A DNA stretch of 64,000 nt from Candidatus Sungiibacteriota bacterium (GCA_016186145.1 JACPMF010000004.1:345-64344); one strand, 5' to 3'; shown: positions 4,507 through 58,070, counted from the first letter of the stretch. A program made the numbers and translations. Notes: a model not told the origin generated them from the letters alone.

Positions 4507-4585
4507 TCACGAAGGTTTGCCCTTTCCTTTCCAGGACCCTTTGAACAAGGTTATTTGCCACAAGCATACCCCAACATACGGTTAT

Positions 4586-13407: not shown

Positions 13408-13491
13408 GGGCATGTGGCGGAACTGGTTTACGCGCACGACTCAAAATCGTGTGGCCTCACGGCCGTGTGGGTTCGACTCCCACCATGCCCA
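13408..13491 (+). tRNA. tRNA-Leu (anticodon CAA)
   Basis: Hand-folded class II tRNA: acceptor GGGCATG/CATGCCC, anticodon loop CTCAAAA, long variable arm, T-arm GTGGG-TTCGACT-CCCAC; 84 nt. Confidence 0.8.
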
Positions 13492-14200
13492 TTTTGTACC
13501 CAAAACGAAACTAACATTTAAAGAATTCGAATGGACGCCGCAACTTGCTTATGTTGTAGGACTTTTAGTAACCGACGGTAATTTATCTAGTGACGGTCGA
13601 CATATAATAATGCGCTCGTCAGATGTAGAATTGTTGAACACTTTCAAAAATTGCCTTAATATCAATAACAGAATTGGAAGAACACAAAACGGCAAAACGA
13701 TTTCTTATAGAGTACAATTCGGAAGTATACAATTTTACAACTGGCTGAAGAAGATAGGACTATTCCCCGCAAAAAGTTACACGATCGGTGAAATAGATAT
13801 TCCAGATAAATTTTTTAGAGATTATCTTCGTGGATGTATAGACGGCGATGGCAATATTTGTACGTACAAAGATTTATATAACGTATATAAAGGAAGAAAA
13901 TACGTCACTCAGCGACTATTTATAAAAATTGTGTCTGCAAGTAAAAAACATATCGTTTGGCTTCGGAATAAAATTACTGCCCTTAACGGCAGTAACGGAG
14001 CAATAATTAAAGACAGCCCGGCAGATAAACAACGGGTTCCAATGTGGATACTGAAATTTGCCAAAAAGGAATCACTACGGCTTCTCAGTTGGATTTACTA
14101 TCAACCAGACATCCCTTGCCTTGAACGTAAACATATGACAGCTGTGTATGCCATCGAAGAGATTAGCAAACAAAAACGGCGTGTATATTCTAGAATATAA
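13492..14200 (+). CDS. LAGLIDADG homing endonuclease (double-motif), free-standing; start codon uncertain
   Basis: Motif 1 LAYVVGLLVTDGNL and motif 2 YLRGCIDGDGNI. The reading frame is open back into tRNA-Leu and there is no canonical start between the tRNA end and motif 1. Confidence 0.65.
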
Positions 14201-14290: not shown

Positions 14291-14587
14291 ACCCTTTTAA
14301 ACAGGTTTTGGGCAAACGCAATAAAATAATGGGCGCGTCTGGATTCGAACCAGAGTTCCCGGGTGTAGAACTGCGCAGCCGCTTCGCGGCTTGCTCGTTA
14401 CACCCGCGAAAAGTCACCGCACCATCCCGAACAAATTGAGGTTAGGGTGCGCGATCCCGTACTTCCGCGATACTGACTCTGTACCATTACGGGTCAGCAG
14501 TTCGGGAGATGCGGGATCTGCGCCAACTTCTCGCTCCCTCTGGTCGCGGAAGTTGCGGGACTATTTAAACGCTTTTCGCCCTTCTCA

Positions 14588-14706
14588 ATTCATCCCGTTG
14601 GATTTTATAAAAATGGGCACTGCAGGGATCGGACCTGCGGCCTTCACAATGTCAATGTGACGCTCTACCACTGAGCTAAGTGCCCTAGAAAATCTAACGG
14701 GATGTC
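14588..14706. repeat. 16-bp inverted repeat (CATCCCGTTgGATTTT / AAAATCTAACGGGATG) bracketing tRNA-Val; ends resemble the MITE terminal inverted repeats
   Basis: Left 14588-14603 and right 14691-14706; 15/16 matches; the left end is preceded by ATTCAT. Confidence 0.6.
14614..14685 (-). tRNA. tRNA-Val (anticodon GAC)
   Basis: GGGCACTTAGCTCAGTGGTAGAGCGTCACATTGACATTGTGAAGGCCGCAGGTCCGATCCCTGCAGTGCCCA; cloverleaf folds, but the T-loop is TCCGATC (C at position 55, unusual). Confidence 0.75.
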
Positions 14707-14865
14707 AACGAGACGCTCTAACCGGCCTCGGCTACGCGCCCTTAAAACGAATCGGACGATGCTGAACGACGTTAGAACCTACTTTCAGGGTATCAAAAAC
14801 TACGAAATGTTTCCAGATTTCAGCAGGATTTCAAAATAAAATCGGCTCTTTATGGAAGCCGATCT

Positions 14866-15609: not shown

Positions 15610-15849
15610 TTATGACAAAAAATGTCTTTTCAAGAACGCCCTGCCGGAGCCTGATTTTAGATATTTTTCGAAATTGAAAGCAACATATTTATTTTGAAAA
15701 GCGAAATAAGAAATTAATTTGATCGGCAATCTATTTTTTGTGGCTGGAACTTGCGCTTTATTATGTCTTACGATTCTGTCTTTTAGATCAGAAGTACATC
15801 CAATATAAAATCTTCTATCACAACATTCTAAAATATAGACATAGTTCAT
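15610..15849 (-). CDS. GIY-YIG nuclease superfamily protein (small, UPF0213-like)
   Basis: YVYILECCDRRFYIGCTSDLKDRIVRHN matches the GIY-YIG core; terminator hairpin downstream. Confidence 0.7.
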   Translation of the reverse strand: MNYVYILECCDRRFYIGCTSDLKDRIVRHNKAQVPATKNRLPIKLISYFAFQNKYVAFNFEKYLKSGSGRAFLKRHFLS

Positions 15850-16239: not shown

Positions 16240-16479
16240 TTATCTAGTTCTTTTCAGGAGTTTTAAAAACTCTTTTACTGAAAATTTTGCTTGCTTCAAA
16301 ATTTCATTCAATAACCACCGGGGTATATCAGCATTGTGATAAGGAATCGTGGTTTGGCGAGTTACATCACGAAAGTGTTGCAAACGAATATGACTTCCGC
16401 CCTGTCTTACAATTTTAAATCCCGCCTTAAGCAGGACACGAAGCAACGCTCTTGAGCTTATCATCGGCAAAATGCTCAT
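16240..16479 (-). CDS. hicA: HicA-family toxin (mRNA interferase)
   Basis: 79 aa; GFKIVRQGGSHIRLQH motif; overlaps hicB by 4 bp. Confidence 0.7.
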   Translation of the reverse strand: MSILPMISSRALLRVLLKAGFKIVRQGGSHIRLQHFRDVTRQTTIPYHNADIPRWLLNEILKQAKFSVKEFLKLLKRTR

Positions 16480-16754
16480 GGAACTGGCGCAAACAACCTT
16501 GATTTTGGCAGTCTGCCTACCGCCTTTCTCGTTTCATCAACAACGATTTTTCCATCTTCTATCACGCAGTCGCAATAAATTTCTATAGCGTCCTTGGCCA
16601 TTTTTTTTGCTTCAGTAAGCGTTTTTCCAAACGTTGCTACTTCGGGAAGAGAAATTCCCTTCACAAGGTAAACTCCTTCTTTAGCATCACGCCAAATAAG
16701 CACCTTGTAAGTACCATTTCGCGTCTGGATGGTAAATTCCCTTTTATTTTTCAT
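16476..16754 (-). CDS. hicB: HicB-family antitoxin
   Basis: 92 aa, UPF0150-like N-terminal domain (YKVLIWRDAKEGVYLVKGISLPEVATFGKTLTEAKKMAKDAIE). Confidence 0.65.
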   Translation of the reverse strand: MKNKREFTIQTRNGTYKVLIWRDAKEGVYLVKGISLPEVATFGKTLTEAKKMAKDAIEIYCDCVIEDGKIVVDETRKAVGRLPKSRLFAPVP

Positions 16755-44464: not shown

Positions 44465-44480
44465 GAGCCGTAATTATCTG

Positions 44481-44552
44481 ACGCCCTCGAAGGGAATCGG
44501 ACCCCCATCTGCCCCTTAGGACGGGGCCGTTCTATCCATTGAACTACGAGGG
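44481..44552 (-). tRNA. tRNA-Arg (anticodon CCU)
   Basis: GCCCTCGTAGTTCAATGGATAGAACGGCCCCGTCCTAAGGGGCAGATGGGGGTCCGATTCCCTTCGAGGGCG; T-arm has G-U pairs and an unusual TCCGATT loop. Confidence 0.6.
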
Positions 44553-44679
44553 CAATGAATGGTTATTATCATAATAATATAGCGCATTGTTTCCCTTTTT
44601 TCCACACTTTCGGTATAATATAATTCGTTACCGAAATTTCCTAAATAAACTAAAAACTATAAACTAATATCTATTTTTT

Positions 44680-47787: not shown

Positions 47788-49845
47788 ATGGAAATCCGAG
47801 ACAACGAACGACTCGCCTTCCACATTGGCGAAGTCGTGCGTGGAAGCAGAAAGTTTGAAAATGCTGCCACAAGCGTATCGCGGATGATTTTGGGACGAGG
47901 AGTAAAGAAAAGCACAAGAGCCGGGCAGACTACATTTGAGTTCGGCTTCTTCCGTGGAGGCCGCAAGCACGTTGTCGGCTGGTTCGATGAGATCAACGAC
48001 CTCGTTAACTTCGTGAAGGATGCCGCCGAAGGCGGGTCCTCGCAGGAAATGGCATTCGTGCTCGTTGGCGAACCCGGCAACGGAAAAACCTTCTTTGTTG
48101 AAAGCCTCTGCTCCGCGTACCGACAGTTCATTGCGCAACCGGAAAACAGAAGGTACACGTTCGAATTCGTCGGCTTGGAAGAACTGGGGCGCTACGGAAA
48201 TATTGGGGTCATCCAATCCCAAACCTTTGAAGACCCGCTCGTCTTGGCCATGAACCTTGGCGTGTCAAAAGATCAGAACAAGGAACGCCTGGCAAAGACG
48301 GGATTCGAAGACCACGACATCGACCGGCTCTATGGAGACTATCGCCCGCTTGGGGCATGCACGGAATTCATCTGGAACGATATTCTCACCCACTGCGACG
48401 GCGATGTGGAACGGGCGCTCGGATTCGTACGGATTGTGCCCGTACCGATCGCCGAAAGCCTGGGAACCGTTACCGGCAAATACTCGGCTCGCGACAAAAT
48501 CACTTCTTCCGCAACCGACCTCCTCGGAGAAGAAGACCTGTCGCGTCTTTTGAACCTTAAGGATACGTCCAATCCCTATAAGTACAACATCCGGAGGGGC
48601 GCGATCGCGCGTGTCGCCGGTGGCGGCATTCACTTTTCAGACGAGCTTTTCAAGAACAAAAAAGACCTTGTTCAGATTTACCTTCAGGTTATTCAGAACC
48701 GAACGATCGAACTCGACGGGTACCGCTGGCCCATTGATACGCTCATCATCGCAACCAGCAACAACTGGGAATACAACCGCTTTACCGGCGAACGAGAAGA
48801 GGCTCCGATCAAAGACCGCTGCCGCATTTGCTACGTTTCCCACAACACCGACTACAGGCTTCAACAAGTGCTGAACCGGTACGCGATCGGAAGCGAAAAG
48901 AAAGTCACCGTAACCGGCGAGGGGCTCCATGAGGATCCTAACCTTGTGTACGCCCTTTCGGTCGCCGTAACACTGACTCGTCTTCCGCATAGCGACAAGC
49001 TCACCCCGATTGAAATGATGAAGCTTGAAGCCGGAGAAACTGCCGGAGAGAAAAATGTCAAGACGCTGGCTGAAATAAAGGGAATGCTGAATGCCAACCC
49101 TGACGTTACAAAGCGTTGGGGGCAAAAAGGAATCGGACACCGCGGCCTCGGAAGAGTCGTCCAGATCATGCTTGCTATGCCGGAGACGCACGAAGGCAAA
49201 TGCCTTTTTGCGAAAGACTGCTTTGAGGCCGCTGAAAGAGAAATTCTTGACTATATCCCCGATGCGGTCGACCGCGAAAAATTCATGAAGGACCTGAAGG
49301 TTGCCCGGAAACTCTACCGAGGCGAGATCAAGACCTCGATCTTCAACGCTTATCGCGACGACCCGGAAGCCATCCGCAAGGATGTCATCGCCTATGTCAA
49401 CATGATCATCGGTATGGACTCCGACCAGCTGGGTCCGGACAAGATTTGGCGGTATCGTGATCCGCAAACCGGCGAGATGAAGGCGATCAAGGTTGAAGAA
49501 CGCTTCATCGACAGCGTTGAAAGCCGTCTCGGCCTTTCAACGAGAGAACGGAAAGAAACGTTCCGCACGTCCATCCGGAAGATTTACGGCCAGAAGGTTT
49601 CTACGGAACCGAACTACGACTTTATGGATAACGAGGCGCTCGTGAAAGCCGTAACCGACGTCCGCCTCGAATCCGACGTCGCCGGAGCCGCGAGTCTCGT
49701 CGGAGCGCTCGCAAACCGCGCGAATGAAGAAAACGTGCGCATCTACAACAGGATGATTGAAACCATGCTCAACAAGCTGAACTACTGCAGGACATGCGCG
49801 CAAAAAACCATTGAGTACTTCTGCGAAAAAACGGATGAGGACTAA
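47788..49845 (+). CDS. prkA: PrkA-family serine protein kinase (YeaG-like), paralog 1
   Basis: Walker A LVGEPGNGKT, 685 aa; collinear with YeaG (GGIHFSDE...IIATSN); strong Shine-Dalgarno AAGGAGG. Confidence 0.85.
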   Translation: MEIRDNERLAFHIGEVVRGSRKFENAATSVSRMILGRGVKKSTRAGQTTFEFGFFRGGRKHVVGWFDEINDLVNFVKDAAEGGSSQEMAFVLVGEPGNGKTFFVESLCSAYRQFIAQPENRRYTFEFVGLEELGRYGNIGVIQSQTFEDPLVLAMNLGVSKDQNKERLAKTGFEDHDIDRLYGDYRPLGACTEFIWNDILTHCDGDVERALGFVRIVPVPIAESLGTVTGKYSARDKITSSATDLLGEEDLSRLLNLKDTSNPYKYNIRRGAIARVAGGGIHFSDELFKNKKDLVQIYLQVIQNRTIELDGYRWPIDTLIIATSNNWEYNRFTGEREEAPIKDRCRICYVSHNTDYRLQQVLNRYAIGSEKKVTVTGEGLHEDPNLVYALSVAVTLTRLPHSDKLTPIEMMKLEAGETAGEKNVKTLAEIKGMLNANPDVTKRWGQKGIGHRGLGRVVQIMLAMPETHEGKCLFAKDCFEAAEREILDYIPDAVDREKFMKDLKVARKLYRGEIKTSIFNAYRDDPEAIRKDVIAYVNMIIGMDSDQLGPDKIWRYRDPQTGEMKAIKVEERFIDSVESRLGLSTRERKETFRTSIRKIYGQKVSTEPNYDFMDNEALVKAVTDVRLESDVAGAASLVGALANRANEENVRIYNRMIETMLNKLNYCRTCAQKTIEYFCEKTDED

Positions 49846-50268: not shown

Positions 50269-51630
50269 ATGCGGAAAGACAGCAAGAAAGAAACGGCTGG
50301 AAATGAACACGCCACCAATCTTGATGTTCTCGGCATGGAACTCGCGCTTAAAGCGAGAATTGAAAGACGTATTGCGAACTGGAACGGACAAGGAGTTACC
50401 GGCGCTATCACCTCTTTGGAGTCCCTCCAGGACCTCTTGAAGAGGGACAAAGAAAGACAGCAGGACGGTTTTCCTTCCAAAATAAAATTCAGAAGGGTTC
50501 TCGCGGCAAATAATCGAGTAGTCAACGTTCCGTATGTCGACGAAGAAAAGCTGTTCCATGGACCATTTGAACCGAAGGGCGCAAAGCTTGTCGCCCAAAC
50601 CGCTGATTTTCTCGAGCTTCCGGACATTGACGAAGCCACCGGACACGGAGACGGCGATGTCGGCGACGTAATCGGTGAAGTGCCGATGCCCGGCAGGGGC
50701 GGTGGCGGCGATGACGGCGACGAAGGCGATGGAAACGGATCACAGCCCGGCGCCGGAGATGAAGACGCGGATCACGCGCTTGAAGAAGAAGCGTATGAGT
50801 TGGGAAGACGGCTGATGGAACAACTCAAGCTCCCCAACCTCAAAGACAAGGCAAGAAAAGTTCCTACCGATGAATACACCTACGATCTTACCGACCGCCA
50901 TCGCGGTTCGGGACAGGTTCTCGACAAAAAAGAAACATTGCGGCGCGTTGTCAAAACAAACCTGATTCTCGGCAGAATAGAAAAAGACGCCGTCGATACG
51001 AGAAAAATGATCGTCAGCCCGGGAGATCTGGTATTTCGAGTTCTTTCCCGAGAACGGGTCTGGAAAGCGCAAGCCTTGGCATGTTTTCTCCGAGACTACT
51101 CCGGTTCAATGTGGGGGGATCCTACAAAAGCCCTCGTATCCCAGCACCTTATGATTTACGCGTGGCTTCTGGTTCAATATGAAAAACGCGTTATCCCGCG
51201 ATTCTTCGTTCACGACCATAACGCGCGCGAAGTGAGCGCAAAAGAATACTTCGGACTCGGGTCTTACGGCGGAACACTTATCGCTTCCGGCTACAAAAAA
51301 ATCAACGAAGTAGTTGAGGGTGAAGGCCTTGAGAACGACTACAACATTTATGTCTTCCAAGGCACGGACGGCGATGACGGCGACGAAGGCGAATTCGCCC
51401 TTCCGGAGCTCAACAAAATCCTGAATTATGTAAGTCGCATGGGAGTCACCCTGTTTAAACATCCTTACTACACAAGCCAGGGCCAGAAAACAATCTTTGA
51501 GCAATACATTGAAAAAGGCGGCATCCTGGAAAGAAAGGATGTCTTCCGCATGCATACCATGCCGCGATATACCAACGTGACCGAAGAGATGAATGTTGAA
51601 GCGCTTCGCACGCTCATTGCCCAAGACTAA
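50269..51630 (+). CDS. DUF444 family protein (YeaH/YhbH-like, vWA-type), PrkA partner
   Basis: Position between prkA and spoVR; Gly/Asp-rich low-complexity segment typical of YeaH. Confidence 0.75.
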   Translation: MRKDSKKETAGNEHATNLDVLGMELALKARIERRIANWNGQGVTGAITSLESLQDLLKRDKERQQDGFPSKIKFRRVLAANNRVVNVPYVDEEKLFHGPFEPKGAKLVAQTADFLELPDIDEATGHGDGDVGDVIGEVPMPGRGGGGDDGDEGDGNGSQPGAGDEDADHALEEEAYELGRRLMEQLKLPNLKDKARKVPTDEYTYDLTDRHRGSGQVLDKKETLRRVVKTNLILGRIEKDAVDTRKMIVSPGDLVFRVLSRERVWKAQALACFLRDYSGSMWGDPTKALVSQHLMIYAWLLVQYEKRVIPRFFVHDHNAREVSAKEYFGLGSYGGTLIASGYKKINEVVEGEGLENDYNIYVFQGTDGDDGDEGEFALPELNKILNYVSRMGVTLFKHPYYTSQGQKTIFEQYIEKGGILERKDVFRMHTMPRYTNVTEEMNVEALRTLIAQD

Positions 51631-51637
51631 ACCTAAT

Positions 51638-51728
51638 CTCAAATTCAATTTCCGTGTAAATCCGCGTTGCAATCTGCGTGTTTCCGCGGAGACTCCGCGG
51701 ATCAATGCGGAATGCTACGCGGAAAAAC
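51638..51728. repeat. about 95-bp inverted repeat, right arm, flanking the yeaH-like gene
   Basis: See 49931-50027. Confidence 0.7.
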
Positions 51729-51829
51729 GCTGATATAGAACTTTTGAGATGGCTTCAAGAAGCCAAGGTTGAGCCGGGCCCCGACTCCGTCGGGGCTTTT
51801 CTATAACGGTTACAGAAAGAAAGGAGGAG

Positions 51830-53551
51830 GTGATGGAGCTTTTGAGCCAAAGCATGAAAGGTGAAATGGAAGCGTGCAAGAGGCGGGCAAGAGAAGCCGG
51901 TCTCGTGTTTCAAGACAACACCCTCGAATATGTCGTAACCAACCAAGACATGCTGGAGTTAAGCCCTCGAGTGATGATCCCGACCCTCTACGACTATTGG
52001 GCGTTTGACGTCGAAGTCCACCAAAACCGATGGATGTATGACATCCATCCGCACAATCCCTATGAGACCGTAATCAACACGAGACCTCCGATTTCCTTCT
52101 ACAACCAGGATAATGCGGACTGGTTTAACGTGATGATTTTCTATCATGTCCTGGGACACATCGACTTCTTCCAGAACAATACGTTCTTCCGCAGGACATG
52201 GGACGACGATTTCTGCGGGCAAGCCCTCGCGGATAAACGGCTCATCAACCGGATCCGCGCGGAACACGGAGACCAAAAACGATGGGTCGACTATCTGATT
52301 GAATTTGCGCGCGCTATCGACAATTTGGTGGGATACCACCAGGAGCTCAAAGAAGGCGACGAAGCGGAACAACCGGAAATTTTCGGCGCATTTTCTGAAA
52401 AAGCGGATTTTTACTTCGGGCAATTCCTGAAAGAGCTCTACGAAGCAAAAAGAGTCAAGCTCGAATTCTACTACGAAGAAATCGAACGCTACAACCGCTG
52501 CGTGAGGACATTCGGGAAAAAGCAGGGCGAACTCGCCTTCTTCGAAGACAACACGTTCAGAAGCAAGCTCCCCGAATTCAACGATGTATTCAAGAAACGG
52601 AAAGAAAAGGGCGAGAAACCGAAGCCCAAAGACATTTTTGAGCACCTCGCGGAGCGTTCGGACTCCCTGAACCAGGAAGAGAACCGGTGGATGAAAGAAG
52701 TGCTGCAGGTAATCAGAAGAACGTCTCTCTACTTCCAGCCGCAGATGAGAACTAAGATCGCGAACGAAGGTTGGGCAAGCTTATGGCACCAAACCCTCTT
52801 CATGGCAGATGAACGAATGAGCACCCATGAAGTAGATTTCGCAAGAGTAGATTCGGCGGTCACTTTTGATCCGCGGCTCGGAATCAATCCGTACGCCGCA
52901 GGCAAGCACCTTTTTGAATTCATCGAGGCGCTTGCCCGAAAGGGACGCCTTTCACCGGAATACCGTCTGCTCAAAAACATAGATACGCGAAAGAAGTACG
53001 ACCGGGATTGCGGACAAGCTGCCGGGCGAAAAGCGCTCTTTGAGGCACGGAGGCATTTTGACGACTATCTCCTGGTCAACTTCCTTTCTGATGAAGACTT
53101 CCAGGATTTTGTGGATGAACACAAGCTATTCATTGCAGGAGTCCGGCCAAGCCGCGAAAGATGGGACAGGGCTGAAATCTACATCAAATCGCGGAGCGGA
53201 AAAGAATACCGACGCCTTCTCAACCGAATGCTCTACCATCCGCCATATGTTGATTTCTCCGGAGCGAAAGCAAAAGACGGAGAACTGTATCTTGATCATG
53301 TGTACGAAGGCAGGTCGCTCTTCAGAAAGTACATCGGCCCGGTCCTAATCGGACTCGAATTCCTTTGGGGACGTCAGGTAAAACTCGAAACGACGGAATA
53401 TGAAGAAACCCAACCGAAAAACTGGTGGGAGTGGAGAAGTTCCCAGTACCAGCCGGAATACAAAAAAATCAGGGTCCTTTACGCCTGTGACAAGCGAAAA
53501 ATAACGAGAACGATTCTCGACCAAACTACCACGGATTCCTATGGAGGCTAG
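51830..53551 (+). CDS. spoVR: SpoVR/YcgB family protein
   Basis: N-terminal region with HVLGHIDFF-type motif; 573 aa. Confidence 0.85.
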   Translation: MMELLSQSMKGEMEACKRRAREAGLVFQDNTLEYVVTNQDMLELSPRVMIPTLYDYWAFDVEVHQNRWMYDIHPHNPYETVINTRPPISFYNQDNADWFNVMIFYHVLGHIDFFQNNTFFRRTWDDDFCGQALADKRLINRIRAEHGDQKRWVDYLIEFARAIDNLVGYHQELKEGDEAEQPEIFGAFSEKADFYFGQFLKELYEAKRVKLEFYYEEIERYNRCVRTFGKKQGELAFFEDNTFRSKLPEFNDVFKKRKEKGEKPKPKDIFEHLAERSDSLNQEENRWMKEVLQVIRRTSLYFQPQMRTKIANEGWASLWHQTLFMADERMSTHEVDFARVDSAVTFDPRLGINPYAAGKHLFEFIEALARKGRLSPEYRLLKNIDTRKKYDRDCGQAAGRKALFEARRHFDDYLLVNFLSDEDFQDFVDEHKLFIAGVRPSRERWDRAEIYIKSRSGKEYRRLLNRMLYHPPYVDFSGAKAKDGELYLDHVYEGRSLFRKYIGPVLIGLEFLWGRQVKLETTEYEETQPKNWWEWRSSQYQPEYKKIRVLYACDKRKITRTILDQTTTDSYGG

Positions 53552-53667
53552 TTTCTAAGACGCCGGCAATTCGTACGCGCGAAACCCGCAAGCGCGGGGC
53601 AGCGCATGCGAATTGCTGGCTTTTCTAAAAGACCGGCGGCCGTTAGTAAAACGAAAGGAGGAAAACC

Positions 53668-55869
53668 ATGCCCGCGGTGAAAGACGCCCTGACATATCTC
53701 GGATCTGAAATCGGAAAAACGGAAAAAGTGGTAACCTTAAGCTTCGAAGAATATCTTGACCTTGCCGCACGAGAACCGGGACGAGTATTGCGAAATATCT
53801 TCCAACTCTTTTACGACATGGTCAACGAATGCGTGGACAAAGGGACCGATGAGTACCCTGATGATCCGGAATCAATCGGTTTTGTAAAATACGATTGCAC
53901 CCGGCTTTTTGCCGAAAGAGCGGACAATCCATTCTTCGCCGACCGGCTTTTCGCGAACCGGTTCATACGCCAGATTGAAAGTCTTCGGCAGGGTTTCCAG
54001 CAAAACCGCATCTATGCCTACGAAGGCCCTTCCGGCTGCGGCAAAAGCACATTTCTGAACAATCTTTTGAGAACCTTTGTCGCTTACACCAACACAAGAG
54101 CGGGACAAATCTTCGAGCTTGTCTGGGAGATAGACGGAACTCTTTTTTCTCAAGATGCCGGAGCCTCCAAGAAACTGGTTGTTCCGTGCCCGAGCCATGA
54201 CTACCCGATTTTGGTCGTCCCGAAAGAACACCGGCCTGAATTCTTGAGAAAACTCCTCCCGGACGGGGAAGCCAAGCAAAAGATTCTCGGAAGCAAGGAA
54301 TACGAATGGCTTTTCACCGGAGAAGTGTGCACCGTTTGTAAGTCAATTTTTGAGCTCGCGCTCGAAAAACTCGGTTCTGTCGAAAAAGTATTCACAATGC
54401 TCCGGGCGAGAACCTATAAATTTGATCGGCGCCTCGGGGAAGGCATTAGCGTCTTCAATCCGGGCGACCAATCGGTATGGGTCGGAAACGACGGCAAACC
54501 GACCGGCGGCGTTTTCACCAACAAACCTCTACAACAAGATCTCGATCGGCTATTCGGCGCAGGAAGGGTCAAGTATGTCTTCTCTTCTCTCGCGCAGACC
54601 AACAACGGCATCCATGTGCTGATGGATGTAAAGGGATACAACAAGGCGCGGCTTCTCGAGCTTCACAATGTCATCAGCGAAGGCGTACATAAAGTGGGCG
54701 GTGTAGAAGAAGGCGTTACGGCCCTTTTCTTTGCCCTCATGAACCCGGAAGACAAACGAGTCATCACCGACGAGAAAATGGAGTCCTTTGAAGGAAGAAT
54801 CCAATACAACAAAATCCCCTATGTACTGGCACCCGACACCGAAGTGGATATCTATCGCAGCATTTTCGGATCCTCGATCGTGGCAAGCTTTCTCCCGCGA
54901 GTCCTTGAAAACTTCGCGCGCGTAATTATTTCTTCCCGCATGAACATGGAGTGCAAGCCGCTGAAAGAGTGGATCCCGGATGTCGCAAAATACAAAAAGT
55001 ACTGCGATGAAAGCGGCTTATTGCTTCGCATGGCAATCTATATGGGAGTTATCCCGAACTGGCTTTCCGAAGAAGACAGAAAAAAATTCGCCGCTCCGGT
55101 ACGCCGGGCATTGATCGCAGAGGGCGAAAACGAAGGTGGCAAAGGATTTTCCGGCAGAGACTCTTTGCGTCTCTTTGGCGAATTTTTCAGCCGCTACAGC
55201 GGGCGGCCAAGCTTGATTACCATGGAGAATGTTGAAGACTTCTTCAAGCACCGCATCGGAAGAGAACGTCGCGATGAATTCATACCGAAAAACTTCCTTG
55301 CGGCACTCATCGGAGCATATGATTATGCGATCTTGAACGAAATGAAAGAAGCCATGTACTTCTACAACAAAGAACGGATCTCGAGAGATATCCTGAACTA
55401 TCTCCATGCGGTCAATTACGAAGTCGAGACAAAGATACAATGCCCCTTTACCGGCGAAGAAATGGAAGTAACAATGGTCTTCCTCAAGCTTATGGCAAGC
55501 CGTATTGCCGGAAGAGAAATGAGCGATTCCGACGCCTTGAAATTCGCGCAGGATATCCAGAAGAAGTTTACGGTCGCTGCCGCCAAAGGAGGCGGCATAA
55601 CGGAAACAGAACTTTATAATGATCTTTTTGCCGCTTACGTGAGAAATCTTAAGGAAAAAGTGCTGCAACCGTTTGCCAAGAATGCAAATTTCCGCGAAGC
55701 CATCAGGGCGTTCGGAACAAGAGAGTTCGAAACGTTCGATACCCGGCTGAAAGAACACGTAATCGCTATGATCAAAAACATGATGGAGAAGTTCGGGTAC
55801 ACCGAACAGGGAGCAAAAGAAATCTGTCTTTACGTGATAGACAAAAACCTAGCAGAAAAGTATTCATAA
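53668..55869 (+). CDS. PrkA-family serine protein kinase, paralog 2
   Basis: Walker A YEGPSGCGKSTFLNNLL (compare YeaG LLGPVGGGKSSL); 733 aa; collinear PrkA core. Confidence 0.75.
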   Translation: MPAVKDALTYLGSEIGKTEKVVTLSFEEYLDLAAREPGRVLRNIFQLFYDMVNECVDKGTDEYPDDPESIGFVKYDCTRLFAERADNPFFADRLFANRFIRQIESLRQGFQQNRIYAYEGPSGCGKSTFLNNLLRTFVAYTNTRAGQIFELVWEIDGTLFSQDAGASKKLVVPCPSHDYPILVVPKEHRPEFLRKLLPDGEAKQKILGSKEYEWLFTGEVCTVCKSIFELALEKLGSVEKVFTMLRARTYKFDRRLGEGISVFNPGDQSVWVGNDGKPTGGVFTNKPLQQDLDRLFGAGRVKYVFSSLAQTNNGIHVLMDVKGYNKARLLELHNVISEGVHKVGGVEEGVTALFFALMNPEDKRVITDEKMESFEGRIQYNKIPYVLAPDTEVDIYRSIFGSSIVASFLPRVLENFARVIISSRMNMECKPLKEWIPDVAKYKKYCDESGLLLRMAIYMGVIPNWLSEEDRKKFAAPVRRALIAEGENEGGKGFSGRDSLRLFGEFFSRYSGRPSLITMENVEDFFKHRIGRERRDEFIPKNFLAALIGAYDYAILNEMKEAMYFYNKERISRDILNYLHAVNYEVETKIQCPFTGEEMEVTMVFLKLMASRIAGREMSDSDALKFAQDIQKKFTVAAAKGGGITETELYNDLFAAYVRNLKEKVLQPFAKNANFREAIRAFGTREFETFDTRLKEHVIAMIKNMMEKFGYTEQGAKEICLYVIDKNLAEKYS

Positions 55870-55885
55870 CCGTGAATGACTAAAA

Positions 55886-55915
55886 CACAAAACACCGGCA
55901 CGCCGGTGTTTTTTA
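55886..55915. terminator. bidirectional rho-independent terminator
   Basis: aaaacaccggcacgccggtgttttttatt; T-runs on both strands. Confidence 0.6.
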
Positions 55916-56160
55916 TTGGGTGCGCCTGGATTTGAACCATCAACCTAAAATAAAAATGGGTCAGGATGGACTCGGACCATCGATCCCCAAGGTACCGCGC
56001 CCGACTTCGCCTTGACGAATAAATTTTGCGAGCGCCTGGATTCGAACCAGGAACCCCGGAGGTATAAGCTCCGTGCTCTAACCGTTGAGCTACGCTCGCG
56101 TAGCGGCGAAGTCAAGGCGGGCGGGTAAGCTCGATGCTTTAGCCGCTAAGCTACTGACCC
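55916..56160 (-). pseudogene. tRNA-like half-fragments bracketing an intact tRNA-Ile(UAU): 5-prime half at 56101-56160, 3-prime half at 55957-56026, and an extra 3-prime fragment at 55916-55956
   Basis: 5-prime half GGGTCAGTAGCTTAGCGGCTAAAGCATCGAGCTTACCC... and 3-prime half ...GATGGTCCGAGTCCATCCTGACCCA have complementary acceptor strands. Their inner ends also base-pair with each other (GACTTCGCC with GGCGAAGTC, CGCCC with GGGCG). Fragment GGTTGATGGTTCAAATCCAGGCGCACCCA duplicates the tRNA-Ile 3-prime end. Confidence 0.45.
56027..56099 (-). tRNA. tRNA-Ile (anticodon UAU)
   Basis: GCGAGCGTAGCTCAACGGTTAGAGCACGGAGCTTATACCTCCGGGGTTCCTGGTTCGAATCCAGGCGCTCGCA; anticodon loop CTTATAC. Confidence 0.8.
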
Positions 56161-56255
56161 TCTTTTATTGCACTTAACATTAAACACAAAAGCGAGCATA
56201 TCCTTTTCTCGCACAATAGCGGAGGTTTTGGAAAATATGTGGAAAGATATGCGAG

Positions 56256-58070
56256 CTAATCCTTCACCAACTTTTCAAATTCTTCCCGCTCAATGGTTTC
56301 TTTCTCAATAAGAATTTTTGCAATTTGTTCAAACTTCCCACGGCGTCTTATCAAAATTTCTTTTGCGCGACGGTTTGCGGCGTCCACCAGTTTTTTAACT
56401 TCCTGGTCAATAAGCCGCGCTGTCTCTTCGGAATATTGACGACCGGTGGAAAAATCTCGGCCAAGAAAAACCGCCTCCTCCTTTTCACTCCAAACGCTTG
56501 GGCCTAATTTTTCCGACATACCAAACCGCGCGACAACGCTTCTCGCAATATCTGTTGCTTTTTCAAGATCATTGTGCGGTCCGGTGGTAACTTCATTAAA
56601 TATCAACTTCTCAGCGGCATATCCACCGAGAGCTACCGCCAACTCATCTAAAAACTGTGAATAAGAAAACAAATGGCGCTCCTCTATCGGAATCTTTAAC
56701 GTGTAGCCGCCGGCGCGTCCACGGGACACAATAGTAATTTTATGAACGGGATCTGCGTGCTCAACCGAGGCCGCAACCAGAGCATGCCCGGCTTCGTGGT
56801 AAGCCGTTATTTTTTTCTCCTCGACGGTCAGAAGACGCGACTTTCGTTCCGGTCCTAACATTACTTTCTCTATAGACTTTATAAGATCGATCTGCGAAAC
56901 CTTTTTCCGATTTTCGCGCGCGGCAAGAATCGCCGCCTCGTTCATAAGATTCTCAAGGTCCGCGCCGGAAAAACCAGGCGTGCGCTCGGCAATCACCCGT
57001 AGTCGCACATCATCCGTAAGCGGCTTATTCCGGCCGTGGATATGAAGAATTTCCTCCCGGCCATTAATATCCGGCAAATCCATCACCACCCTCCGGTCAA
57101 ACCTGCCGGGCCGCAAAAGCGCGGGATCCAAAACATCGGGTCGGTTGGTCGCGGCAATGACAATAACGCGATCGTCCGTTTCCATGCCGTCCATTTCAAC
57201 GAGAATTTGATTGAGCGTCTGCTCTCTCTCGTCATGTCCACCGCCAAGCCCGGCCCCACGCACCCTTCCTACCGCATCAAGCTCATCGACAAAAATTATC
57301 GCCGGCGCGGCTTTTTTGGCAAGACGAAAGAGGTCCCTGACTCTCGAAGCCCCTACCCCGACAAACATTTCAATAAATTCCGAAGCCGACATGTGAAAAA
57401 ACGGAACGCCGGCCTCGCCCGAAACCGCTTTTGCAAGAAGCGTTTTCCCGCATCCTGGCGGCCCCATTAACAAAACTCCTTTTGGAATTTTTGCGCCGAT
57501 ATCCAAAAACTTCTTGGGGTTCTTCAAAAAATCAACAACTTCTTTCAGCTCTTCTTTCGCCTCTTCCGCTCCCGCGACATCTTTGAAGGTAACCTGCTCT
57601 TTCTGGCCGGGCGAAATAAGCCGCGCCCGCGACTGGCCGAAGGTAAATGCCTGCATAGAGCCGCGCTGAACCTGGCGCGCCGTCCACCAGATAAAAAACC
57701 CGATCAACAAAATCGGTAAAAGAATCGGCAACAAAGCGCCGAGCCAAAACGAAATCCCGCCTTCGGTTTTCACTTCTATCGTAATCTCCCGAAGGCGTTC
57801 TTCCGAAACCCCGTAATCCCGCAGAATTTCAATCAAGCCGACCCCGGTTTCTTTTCGTGAAGTAACAATAACGCCGTCTTTTCGCAATGCCTCGAGCTGG
57901 CTTTCTGCAATGGTAATTTTTTGGAGTTCGCCTTGATTAACCGCGCTCACCAATTCAGAAAGCGAAACTTCTTTCTTCTCTTGCAGTGATTCGGTTATAA
58001 GGGCGTAAACCCCTGAAACCAAAACAAGAATGATAAGGGCGTAAATAATATGTTTGGAAAAATCGCGCAT
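56256..58070 (-). CDS. ftsH: ATP-dependent zinc metalloprotease FtsH
   Basis: N-terminal TM segments, AAA module (GPPGCGKT), HEAGHAL zinc-binding motif. Confidence 0.95.

What the first reader, a model, noticed from the sequence alone, without database searches (positions are those of the whole stretch)
55916..56160. Same nested architecture at tRNA-Ile(UAU): intact tRNA flanked by tRNA half-fragments with complementary acceptor stems and mutually pairing inner ends
A 5-prime tRNA-like half (GGGTCAG acceptor, good D-arm) and a 3-prime half (T-arm plus CTGACCCA) flank the intact tRNA-Ile. Their inner ends can form a 9-bp plus 5-bp helix (GACTTCGCC with GGCGAAGTC; CGCCC with GGGCG), reminiscent of how split tRNA halves or intron-containing pre-tRNAs pair. 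A further 3-prime fragment duplicates the tRNA-Ile 3-prime end, which looks like an att-site-style partial duplication. Two independent loci with the same geometry point to a recurring mechanism, for example tRNA-carrying elements homing into paralogous tRNA genes, rather than random decay.
Basis: seen in the sequence. Interest (0 to 1): 0.75.

Follow-up and report, generated by a model that had tools for sequence, protein, structure and literature searches.

The report
tRNA gene nested inside tRNA gene
An intact isoleucine tRNA gene sits on a short helical stalk inside the anticodon loop of an older, split copy of the same kind of tRNA gene; the pattern recurs at the same spot in related groundwater bacteria and suggests an undescribed way of replacing an essential tRNA gene.

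Summary
All features are on the minus strand. Positions 56160-56126 and 55994-55957 are the two halves of one tRNA gene. Joined at anticodon position 35/36, they are 69/73 identical to an intact tRNA-Ile(UAU) from another groundwater metagenome. The split gene is therefore tRNA-Ile(UAU) too. Between the halves lie 131 nt: a 9+5 bp stalk carrying a different, intact tRNA-Ile(UAU) (56099-56027). Positions 55946-55917 are a 30-nt 3' remnant of a third tRNA-Ile type, not a copy of the intact one.

The genome is a Candidatus Sungbacteria (CPR) MAG. Its closest relative (FtsH 95% identical) has one uninterrupted tRNA-Ile(UAU) here. Two other lineages have independent nests with different tRNAs, stalks and insertion points, and others keep only remnants.

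Best reading: serial gene replacement, in which a compact stalk-plus-tRNA cassette lands in a loop of the resident gene, supplies the function, and the old halves decay. No group I core, bulge-helix-bulge motif, recombinase or second cassette copy was found, so the insertion mechanism is unknown. A functional intron is less likely but not excluded. I found no prior description.

The parts
56126..56160 (-). 5' half (positions 1-35) of the interrupted resident tRNA-Ile(UAU) gene ('outer', type A): acceptor 5' strand, D arm, anticodon stem 5' strand, loop CTTA
   Evidence: nhmmer profile positions 1-35, E 1e-5. Rfam tRNA truncated hit, model 1-34, 20.0 bits. 35/35 collinear with intact homologues L030-L032.
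56100..56125 (-). Left flank of the insert: CCCGCCCGCCTTGACTTCGCC (5' strand of the stalk) plus a 5-nt unpaired leader GCTAC
   Evidence: Pairs with 55998-56011 in the MFE fold. Unique in the window and in all fetched loci.
56027..56099 (-). Intact inner tRNA-Ile(UAU), type B, 73 nt, no encoded CCA; presumed to be the working gene
   Evidence: ARAGORN. Rfam RF00005, 71.3 bits. Positions 8-48 are identical to the single tRNA-Ile(UAU) of the closest relative L033.
55995..56026 (-). Right flank of the insert: 15-nt unpaired trailer AAATTTATTCGTCAA, then GGCGAAGTC GGGCG CGG (3' strand of the stalk)
   Evidence: Leader/trailer duplex -34.5 kcal/mol, z -2.8, among the top 4 of 42 tRNAs.
55957..55994 (-). 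3' half (positions 36-73) of the interrupted outer tRNA-Ile(UAU): TAC, anticodon stem 3' strand, variable loop, T arm, acceptor 3' strand, discriminator A
   Evidence: nhmmer profile positions 36-73, E 1e-3. Rfam truncated hit, model 35-71, 15 bits. Joined with the 5' half it is 69/73 identical to L031.
55947..55956 (-). T-rich trailer TTTTTATTTT after the outer tRNA. The same TTTTTAT trailer follows tRNAs in related loci.
55917..55946 (-). 30-nt 3' remnant (positions 44-73) of a third, older tRNA-Ile gene; T stem no longer pairs (3/5); acceptor strand CGCACCC
   Evidence: nhmmer profile positions 44-73, E 7e-4. 26/30 identical to the L037 outer 3' end. Same acceptor strand as the L040 intact tRNA.
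55889..55912 (-). Intrinsic terminator hairpin plus T tract that closes the ftsH-tRNA unit; shared with relative L033
   Evidence: conserved in the alignment with L033.

Best explanation
The locus is a record of serial replacement of an essential tRNA gene.

A resident tRNA-Ile(UAU) gene just downstream of ftsH (type A) was split between anticodon positions 35 and 36. The split was made by a 131-bp insert: a helical stalk carrying a complete, different tRNA-Ile(UAU) gene (type B). The insert destroys the resident gene and at the same time supplies its function, which is why only same-anticodon inserts are seen. The 30-nt fragment further downstream is what is left of a still older resident.

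Inferred working. The whole array is transcribed from ftsH read-through or a weak upstream promoter and ends at the terminator at 55912-55889. The stalk lets the inner tRNA fold as a separate domain. RNase P and a 3' nuclease, followed by CCA addition, release the inner tRNA. The outer halves are non-functional leftovers that will decay.

Shown: the anatomy, the homology of each piece, and the recurrence in relatives.

Inferred: the direction of events, the processing steps, and that the insert arrives as one compact unit aimed at tRNA loops by an unidentified enzyme.
For: 1. The outer halves joined at 35/36 are 69/73 identical to an intact tRNA-Ile(UAU), L031. L030-L032 all have this tRNA type right after ftsH.
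2. The closest relative L033/L034 (FtsH 95%, well-aligned flanks) has a single uninterrupted tRNA-Ile(UAU) and no fragments. One gene therefore suffices and the rearrangement is recent.
3. Independent nests occur at the orthologous locus. L036 has a different inner tRNA and stalk, with a junction at 33/34 or 34/35. L037 has its inner tRNA on an 18-bp perfect stalk in the D loop. The tRNA-Val(GAC) locus of this window is also nested.
4. Outer copies decay elsewhere. In L037 the anticodon stem pairs at 1 of 5 positions and the gene carries two inserts. L038/39 and L045/46 keep only a ~15-nt 5' remnant. This window keeps a 30-nt 3' remnant with a broken T stem.
5. Five clean single genes were found among 11 lineages, against six with nests or remnants.
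6. The tRNA type does not follow the FtsH tree. Type A otherwise occurs in organisms whose FtsH is only 56-58% identical.
7. The four nested tRNAs rank as the top four of 42 for leader/trailer complementarity.
8. No splicing signature was found.
Against: - The outer halves are almost undamaged. All four stems still pair, and the four differences from L031 are two loop changes and two C-to-T changes that give G-U pairs. This fits a recent event but also fits continued selection.
- In L036 versus L037 the insert helices keep pairing through about six two-sided changes, and a 28-nt block is identical although neighbouring intergenic DNA cannot be aligned. This hints at selection on the RNA fold beyond the inner tRNA, or at recent transfer.
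- All four insertion points are in loops (anticodon loop three times, D loop once). A pure survivorship argument does not predict that.
- No recombinase, transposase or homing endonuclease lies within 5 kb.
- No second copy of the stalk sequence was found.
- There are no expression data.
Confidence: 0.52

Rival explanations
1. The insert is a genuine intron of an unknown kind. One transcript yields two tRNA-Ile(UAU) molecules: the inner one released by RNase P and RNase Z, and the outer one after removal of stalk plus tRNA and ligation of the halves.
For: - The insertion sites are all in loops.
- 35/36 is the site enriched for group I introns in Patescibacteria tRNAs (PMC13011429).
- The stalk brings the two junctions face to face: U34-A37, A35-U36, C+1-G-1 and C+2-G-2 continue the helix.
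- The outer stems are intact in the window and in L036.
- The helix is maintained by compensatory changes between L036 and L037.
Against: - No group I core: 58 nt of non-tRNA sequence, no RF00028 hit at E<=10, and A rather than U before the junction.
- No bulge-helix-bulge motif at the homology-defined junction (central helix 1/4 pairs, exon helix 0/3). The best BHB-like arrangement nearby gives an impossible 5-nt anticodon loop and is matched by 86 of 300 shuffles.
- Bacteria are not known to have the tRNA splicing endonuclease (established knowledge; not testable in 64 kb).
- RNase P/Z cuts would leave 26-nt and 32-nt tails on the halves.
- Carrying the same anticodon would be pointless if the host gene still worked.
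- Outer copies decay in L037, L038 and L045.
Confidence: 0.13
2. These are ordinary scars of integrase-driven mobile elements that target tRNA genes. Large elements carrying a tRNA copy integrated and were later almost completely deleted, so no dedicated small cassette exists.
For: - The downstream 30-nt 3' fragment looks like a displaced att-type remnant.
- In L030 a large serine recombinase gene converges on and overlaps the ftsH-linked tRNA-Ile(UAU).
- The L036/L037 insert is bracketed by anticodon-arm-like repeats.
- An archaeal population study proposed tRNA disruption by an integrating element that brings a new tRNA and leaves a 5' fragment (PMC3293823).
- Anticodon loops are classic integrase targets (established knowledge).
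Against: - There is no duplicated core at the 35/36 junction; the halves abut without overlap.
- The insert is only 131 bp, with the tRNA centred 5 nt and 15 nt from the stalk.
- Four independent nests are all compact and all stalked, which would need repeated precise double deletions.
- No recombinase lies within 5 kb.
- Integrase models give an intact tRNA plus a 3' fragment, not a 5' half upstream.
Confidence: 0.22
3. It is a chance resemblance or an assembly chimera.
For: The sequence comes from a metagenome-assembled genome, and tRNA genes are repeat-like.
Against: - Profile E-values are 1e-5 to 1e-3 for fragments that occur only at two loci, and the background is almost free of such hits.
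- The joined halves are 69/73 identical to an independent intact gene.
- Analogous nests occur in independent assemblies, including a closed 923-kb genome, CP066690.1.
Confidence: 0.03

Closest known systems
Group I introns in the anticodon loop of Patescibacteria tRNA genes (PMC13011429)
   Same: Same phylum. The insertion is in the anticodon loop, here at 35/36, which is the site that paper found enriched. The insert ends in G. The interior is a self-contained folded domain whose ends are brought together.
   Different: There is no ribozyme core: 131 nt, of which 73 are a tRNA, and no RF00028 hit. A rather than U precedes the junction. The cargo is a tRNA of the same anticodon rather than nothing or a homing endonuclease. 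The paper reports no nested tRNA.
Archaeal intron-containing and split tRNAs (bulge-helix-bulge substrates of the splicing endonuclease)
   Same: The two tRNA halves are held by acceptor pairing plus an extra helix formed by the sequences next to the break.
   Different: This is a bacterial genome (FtsH, PrkA/YeaH/SpoVR, intrinsic terminators). No BHB motif forms at the junction. The halves are contiguous on one strand around a second tRNA.
Integrative elements that insert into tRNA genes and restore them; the Caldiarchaeum tRNA-Thr disruption model (PMC3293823)
   Same: Mobile DNA lands in a tRNA gene, brings a replacement so the cell survives, and leaves fragments of the old gene next to the new one. 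The downstream 3' remnant here fits this picture.
   Different: Here a whole tRNA is supplied, not just the 3' part. The insert is 131 bp and has no recombinase. There is no duplicated core. Both halves of the old gene remain, flanking the new one.
Intervening sequences (IVS) of bacterial 23S rRNA
   Same: An extra stem-loop is inserted at a loop of a structured RNA gene, with helical ends that keep the host fold intact.
   Different: IVS are excised by RNase III and the host rRNA works in pieces. A tRNA broken within the anticodon cannot decode.
Free-standing homing endonuclease genes ('intronless homing') next to tRNA genes
   Same: The window has LAGLIDADG and GIY-YIG genes beside tRNA genes at 13.4-15.9 kb, one of them adjacent to the nested tRNA-Val locus. 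Cleavage of a resident tRNA gene and repair from a resistant allele could drive replacement.
   Different: No endonuclease gene lies near the tRNA-Ile locus. Homing predicts replacement by conversion, not a nested insert with a stalk.

Membership tests
Group I intron in a tRNA gene | Catalytic core (P3-P9, roughly 200 nt or more) recognisable by a covariance model | tested here: not met
   The insert is 131 nt, of which 73 are a tRNA. No RF00028 hit at E<=10 in a 501-nt search.
Group I intron in a tRNA gene | U as the last exon nucleotide (U-G pair in P1) and G as the last intron nucleotide | tested here: not met
   The junction is fixed by homology as CTTA|...GG|TAC. The last exon base is A35; the last insert base is G.
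Group I intron in a tRNA gene | Located in the anticodon loop | tested here: met
   Located at 35/36, the site enriched in Patescibacteria according to PMC13011429.
Archaeal-type BHB intron / split tRNA | Bulge-helix-bulge motif (3-nt bulges flanking a 4-bp helix) with the splice sites in the bulges | tested here: not met
   At the homology junction the central helix pairs 1/4 and the exon helix 0/3. The best alternative is no better than shuffles (86/300) and gives an invalid loop.
Archaeal-type BHB intron / split tRNA | Splicing endonuclease (EndA) and ligase encoded by the organism | not testable with these tools
   Only 64 kb of the genome is available, and none of the proteins scanned is EndA or RtcB. 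The genome is bacterial.
Integrase att-site remnant at a tRNA gene | Partial tRNA copy (3' part) in direct orientation downstream of an intact tRNA | tested here: met
   55946-55917 covers tRNA positions 44-73 on the same strand.
Integrase att-site remnant at a tRNA gene | The remnant is near-identical to the corresponding part of the intact gene (shared core) | tested here: not met
   24/30 identical to the inner tRNA with a different acceptor strand. It is closer (26/30) to tRNAs of other genomes. There is no overlap or duplication at the 35/36 break.
Integrase att-site remnant at a tRNA gene | Integrase or recombinase gene adjacent | tested here: not met
   The neighbours are FtsH, a PaaX-like protein, PrkA, SpoVR, DUF444 and Maf, with no recombinase. 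A serine recombinase is present at the orthologous site in L030.
MITE-like non-autonomous transposon | Terminal inverted repeats | tested here: inconclusive
   An imperfect 9+5 bp inverted repeat lies near the insert ends. The stalks of the four nests share no sequence.
MITE-like non-autonomous transposon | Target-site duplication and multiple copies per genome | tested here: not met
   There is no duplication at CTTA|TAC. No other copy of either flank with <=3 mismatches occurs in the window or in the 72 fetched loci. The whole genome was not available.
tRNA pseudogene / gene remnant | Clear homology to a functional tRNA together with a lesion that abolishes function | tested here: met
   69/73 identical to the intact L031 tRNA, and the anticodon is split between A35 and U36 by 131 nt.
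tRNA pseudogene / gene remnant | Accumulating disruptive substitutions | tested here: inconclusive
   The outer gene has only two G-U-forming changes in the anticodon stem. The third fragment has a broken T stem. Outer copies in L037, L038 and L045 are clearly degraded.

The most novel reading that the evidence does not exclude
Stalk-plus-tRNA units are a previously unrecognised kind of mobile cassette in CPR bacteria. A complete tRNA gene flanked by self-pairing ends is inserted, by a structure-directed mechanism, into exposed loops (anticodon or D loop) of the resident gene for the same anticodon. The insertion kills the resident gene and replaces it in one step, making the host dependent on the newcomer. 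Repeated rounds would give nested 'Russian-doll' tRNA loci and rapid turnover of acceptor-stem sequences. A bolder version of this reading is that the unit is a new protein-dependent bacterial tRNA intron and that both tRNAs are made.
Probability: 0.3. Interest if true: 0.9.

Novelty: new variant of a known kind. Interest (0 to 1): 0.68.

Why it matters
tRNA genes are usually among the most stable genes in a genome. In this clade the single gene for tRNA-Ile(UAU) is turned over again and again, by insertion of whole replacement genes into the loops of the old one. This tRNA is presumably the decoder of AUA codons here.

If a dedicated mechanism exists, it would be a new class of selfish or addictive genetic element, or a new bacterial intron type. 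It would also explain why acceptor stems of orthologous tRNAs differ in almost every lineage.

There is a practical side as well. Such loci mislead tRNA annotation, because half-genes are missed or miscalled. They also provide natural filled-site and empty-site pairs (the window versus L033) that make the process testable in metagenomic reads and in vitro.

Tried and rejected
1. My first reading of the outer gene as tRNA-Val(UAC) with a 36/37 junction. I rejected it after the metagenome scan returned only intact tRNA-Ile(UAU) homologues, which fix the junction at 35/36.
2. A synteny search through the PrkA neighbour in genome contigs. Relatives have no tRNA locus after PrkA, so it was uninformative.
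3. An exact look-up of the PrkA protein: not on record.
4. Viral-contig scans:
   - The inner anticodon arm gave no hit.
   - A degenerate 5'-half pattern found only free-standing, phage-borne tRNA-Ile(UAU) genes.
   - A stalk 19-mer hit one unrelated phage coding region by coincidence.
   - The L036/L037 motif ATCGAGCGAAGCGAAGAT occurs in about eight unrelated phage contexts as a generic small hairpin, which is not informative.
5. Rfam at permissive thresholds on all nests: no ribozyme, intron or other family.
6. ARAGORN intron mode does not find the outer gene.
7. The bulge-helix-bulge test was negative.
8. The search for more copies of the stalks was negative.
9. The shared ...GGGATGAA end of the tRNA-Val and L037 cassettes is weak evidence, because the 8-mer occurs seven times in the window.
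10. Literature searches found no description of a tRNA gene nested in a tRNA gene.

Full report
**What is there**

On the minus strand, between the stop codon of ftsH (56256) and a terminator shared with the convergent PrkA gene (55912-55889), the sequence reads as follows:
- 56160-56126: GGGTCAG TA GCTT AGCGGCTA AAGC A TCGAG CTTA
- 56125-56100: CCCGCCCGCCTTGACTTCGCCGCTAC
- 56099-56027: an intact 73-nt tRNA-Ile(TAT)
- 56026-55995: AAATTTATTCGTCAAGGCGAAGTCGGGCGCGG
- 55994-55957: TAC CTTGG GGATC GATGG TCCGAGT CCATC CTGACCC A
- 55956-55947: TTTTTATTTT
- 55946-55917: AGGTT GATGG TTCAAAT CCAGG CGCACCC A

ARAGORN and Rfam call only the middle tRNA (71.3 bits).

**Are the flanking pieces really tRNA halves?**

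It gives partial hits only here and at the tRNA-Val(GAC) locus. The hits here are 56160-56126 (profile 1-35, E 1e-5), 55994-55957 (36-73, E 1e-3) and 55946-55917 (44-73, E 7e-4).
- The same scan over 283 kb of other fetched loci gives 20 full tRNAs and one partial hit, which lies at a contig end.
- The Rfam tRNA covariance model does not report the halves in situ. When the searched stretch ends at the junction it reports them as truncated tRNAs: model 1-34 at 20.0 bits and model 35-71 at 15 bits.
- Joined, the halves are called a tRNA by ARAGORN.
- The predicted fold of the 204-nt and 296-nt precursors is fully nested. The outer acceptor and T arm, the stalk and the inner cloverleaf all form (z -3.0 and -4.3).

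**Identity of the outer gene**

I first read the outer gene as tRNA-Val(UAC). A metagenome scan with a pattern from its 5' half returned three contigs, each with an intact tRNA-Ile(UAU). The best one, L031, is 69/73 identical to the window halves joined as ...CTTA|TAC....

The four differences are one D-loop base, one T-loop base, and C27>T and C41>T. Both stem changes give G-U pairs. The outer gene is therefore a tRNA-Ile(UAU) interrupted between positions 35 and 36 by 131 nt, and the profile boundaries (1-35 and 36-73) agree with this. The inner tRNA is a clearly different tRNA-Ile(UAU), about 50/73 identical to the outer one.

**Organism and comparative picture**

The FtsH protein is 100% identical to one from a Candidatus Sungbacteria MAG, and the other neighbours are bacterial. 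I fetched the ftsH-downstream region from ten further Sungbacteria-like lineages whose FtsH is 68-95% identical.

Lineages with one clean tRNA-Ile(UAU):
- L033/L034, the closest relative (FtsH 95%). Its flanks align well with the window, including the same terminator. Its tRNA is identical to the window's inner tRNA at positions 8-48, but three acceptor pairs and one T-stem pair differ.
- L040/41, L042, L043/44 and L071.

Lineages with nests or remnants:
- L036 has a perfect-looking outer tRNA-Ile(UAU) split at 33/34 or 34/35. The insert carries another tRNA-Ile(UAU) at the tip of a long interrupted helix.
- L037 is a closed 923-kb genome. Its outer gene has a tRNA-Ile(UAU) on an 18-bp perfect stalk in its D loop. 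It also carries the L036-type insert in its anticodon loop, but with a plain hairpin where L036 has the tRNA. Its outer anticodon stem pairs at only 1 of 5 positions.
- L038/39 and L045/46 keep only a ~15-nt 5' remnant and the start of the L037-type stalk upstream of an intact tRNA.
- L035 starts with a similar 5' remnant before its contig ends.

The window's third fragment shares its acceptor strand (CGCACCC) with the L040 tRNA and the L037 outer gene. It is closer to these (26/30) than to the window's inner tRNA (24/30).

Type A, the window's outer type, is otherwise found after ftsH in organisms whose FtsH is only 56-58% identical. The tRNA type therefore does not follow the organismal tree.

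**The second locus in the window**

At 14741-14330 (minus strand) the outer gene is a tRNA-Val(GAC) with these features:
- its acceptor strands pair 7/7 (GGGCGCG/CGCGCCC);
- its D stem is partly broken;
- an intact tRNA-Val(GAC) on a 6+6 bp stalk sits in its anticodon loop;
- a further ~225-nt highly structured stretch lies before its T arm.

The whole 415 nt folds with z -6.4, and no Rfam family, including group I introns, matches it. So the same-anticodon-inside-same-anticodon rule holds at both loci.

**Common features of the four nests**

- The inserted tRNA has the same anticodon as its host gene.
- The insertion is in a loop: the anticodon loop three times and the D loop once.
- The insert is compact.
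- The inner tRNA's flanks pair with each other. The four nested tRNAs are the four best of 42 tRNAs for leader/trailer complementarity, with z -9.5, -5.0, -3.5 and -2.8.
- The stalks share no sequence.
- Between L036 and L037 the homologous insert keeps its helices through about six two-sided changes and no disruption.

**Mechanism**

I tested and rejected three mechanisms:
- A group I intron. There is too little sequence, no model hit, and A at position -1.
- An archaeal-type intron. No bulge-helix-bulge motif forms at the junction.
- A multicopy MITE. There is no target duplication and no other copy.

No recombinase, transposase or endonuclease gene lies within 5 kb.

An integrase history is plausible for the downstream 3' remnant, and a serine recombinase abuts the orthologous tRNA in L030. 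It does not explain a 131-bp insert with no duplicated core and both halves retained.

The best-supported account is insertion-type gene replacement. A stalked tRNA cassette enters a loop of the resident gene, the cell survives because the cassette supplies the same tRNA, and the old halves decay. Decay stages are seen across lineages. The processing steps (read-through transcription, RNase P/Z release, CCA addition) are inferred from general bacterial tRNA biology and are not shown. How the cassette is inserted is unknown.

The loop preference and the stalks suggest a mechanism, or a selection, that acts on folded nucleic acid. That keeps the intron reading alive at low probability.

**Comparison with what is known**

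Group I introns at 35/36 are known in Patescibacteria tRNAs (PMC13011429). That paper contains no mention of nested tRNAs. Archaeal work has proposed tRNA disruption by integrating elements that bring a new tRNA and strand a 5' fragment (PMC3293823). Full-text searches for nested, embedded or intron-encoded tRNAs found nothing comparable.

I therefore rate this a new variant of a known kind: mobile DNA that disrupts and simultaneously restores a tRNA gene. There is a real chance that it represents a new class of element.

**Verdict**

Interest is 0.68.

Noticed in passing
window 14330-14741 (minus strand): The tRNA-Val(GAC) locus is nested in the same way: an outer tRNA-Val(GAC) with 7/7 acceptor pairing and an intact tRNA-Val(GAC) on a 6+6 bp stalk in its anticodon loop. 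It also has an extra ~225-nt strongly structured stretch (about 14355-14577) between the variable loop and the T arm that matches no Rfam family. The whole 415 nt folds with z -6.4.
   Followed up: partly
window 13412-14200 (+), 15610-15849 (-), 16240-16754 (-): Three gene sets are interleaved with five tRNA genes in 13.4-17.7 kb: a free-standing LAGLIDADG endonuclease gene between tRNA-Leu(CAA) and the nested tRNA-Val locus, a GIY-YIG nuclease gene just after tRNA-Trp, and a HicA/HicB toxin-antitoxin pair beside tRNA-Thr.
   Followed up: partly
L036 4905-5057 and L037 4546-4640: A ~95-nt insert in the anticodon loop of the outer tRNA-Ile is conserved between two genomes whose neighbouring intergenic DNA cannot be aligned. 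A 28-nt block (TTATATCGAGCGAAGCGAAGATATAATC) is identical, tandem G-A motifs (GCGAGG/CCGAGC) are present, and there are about six compensatory pair changes. It carries a tRNA in L036 and only a hairpin in L037. No Rfam match.
   Followed up: partly
L030 143-1746: A 523-aa serine recombinase ORF converges on and overlaps the 3' end of the ftsH-linked tRNA-Ile(UAU). This suggests the site is also used by integrating elements in other Parcubacteria.
   Followed up: no
ftsH-downstream loci L030-L046, L071 and window 56027-56256: tRNA-Ile(UAU) directly follows ftsH across distant Parcubacteria (FtsH 56-95% identical). Its acceptor stem differs in almost every lineage, while the D and anticodon arms can be identical. 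From memory, tilS-hprT-ftsH is an operon in Firmicutes, so AUA decoding and ftsH may be linked in both groups.
   Followed up: partly
window L1 14588-14596 and L037 about 4525-4533: The tRNA-Val cassette of the window and the D-loop tRNA-Ile cassette of L037 both have TTTTT(T)AT right after the inner tRNA, and both end with GGGATGAA just before the host sequence resumes. This may be a shared cassette end or chance, since the 8-mer occurs seven times in the window.
   Followed up: partly
window 47788-49845 and 50269-55869: There are two PrkA-family paralogues, with a YeaH/DUF444 gene and a SpoVR gene between them. This is an unusual duplication of the PrkA module for a reduced CPR genome.
   Followed up: no
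window tRNAs at 14614-14685, 44480-44554, 55957-55994: Several tRNAs have T loops reading TCCGA, with C instead of the near-universal U at position 55, and still score as good tRNAs.
   Followed up: no
protein P0107: One FtsH homologue of 1031 aa carries LAGLIDADG and intein-splicing domains, so it is an intein-containing FtsH in a related organism.
   Followed up: no
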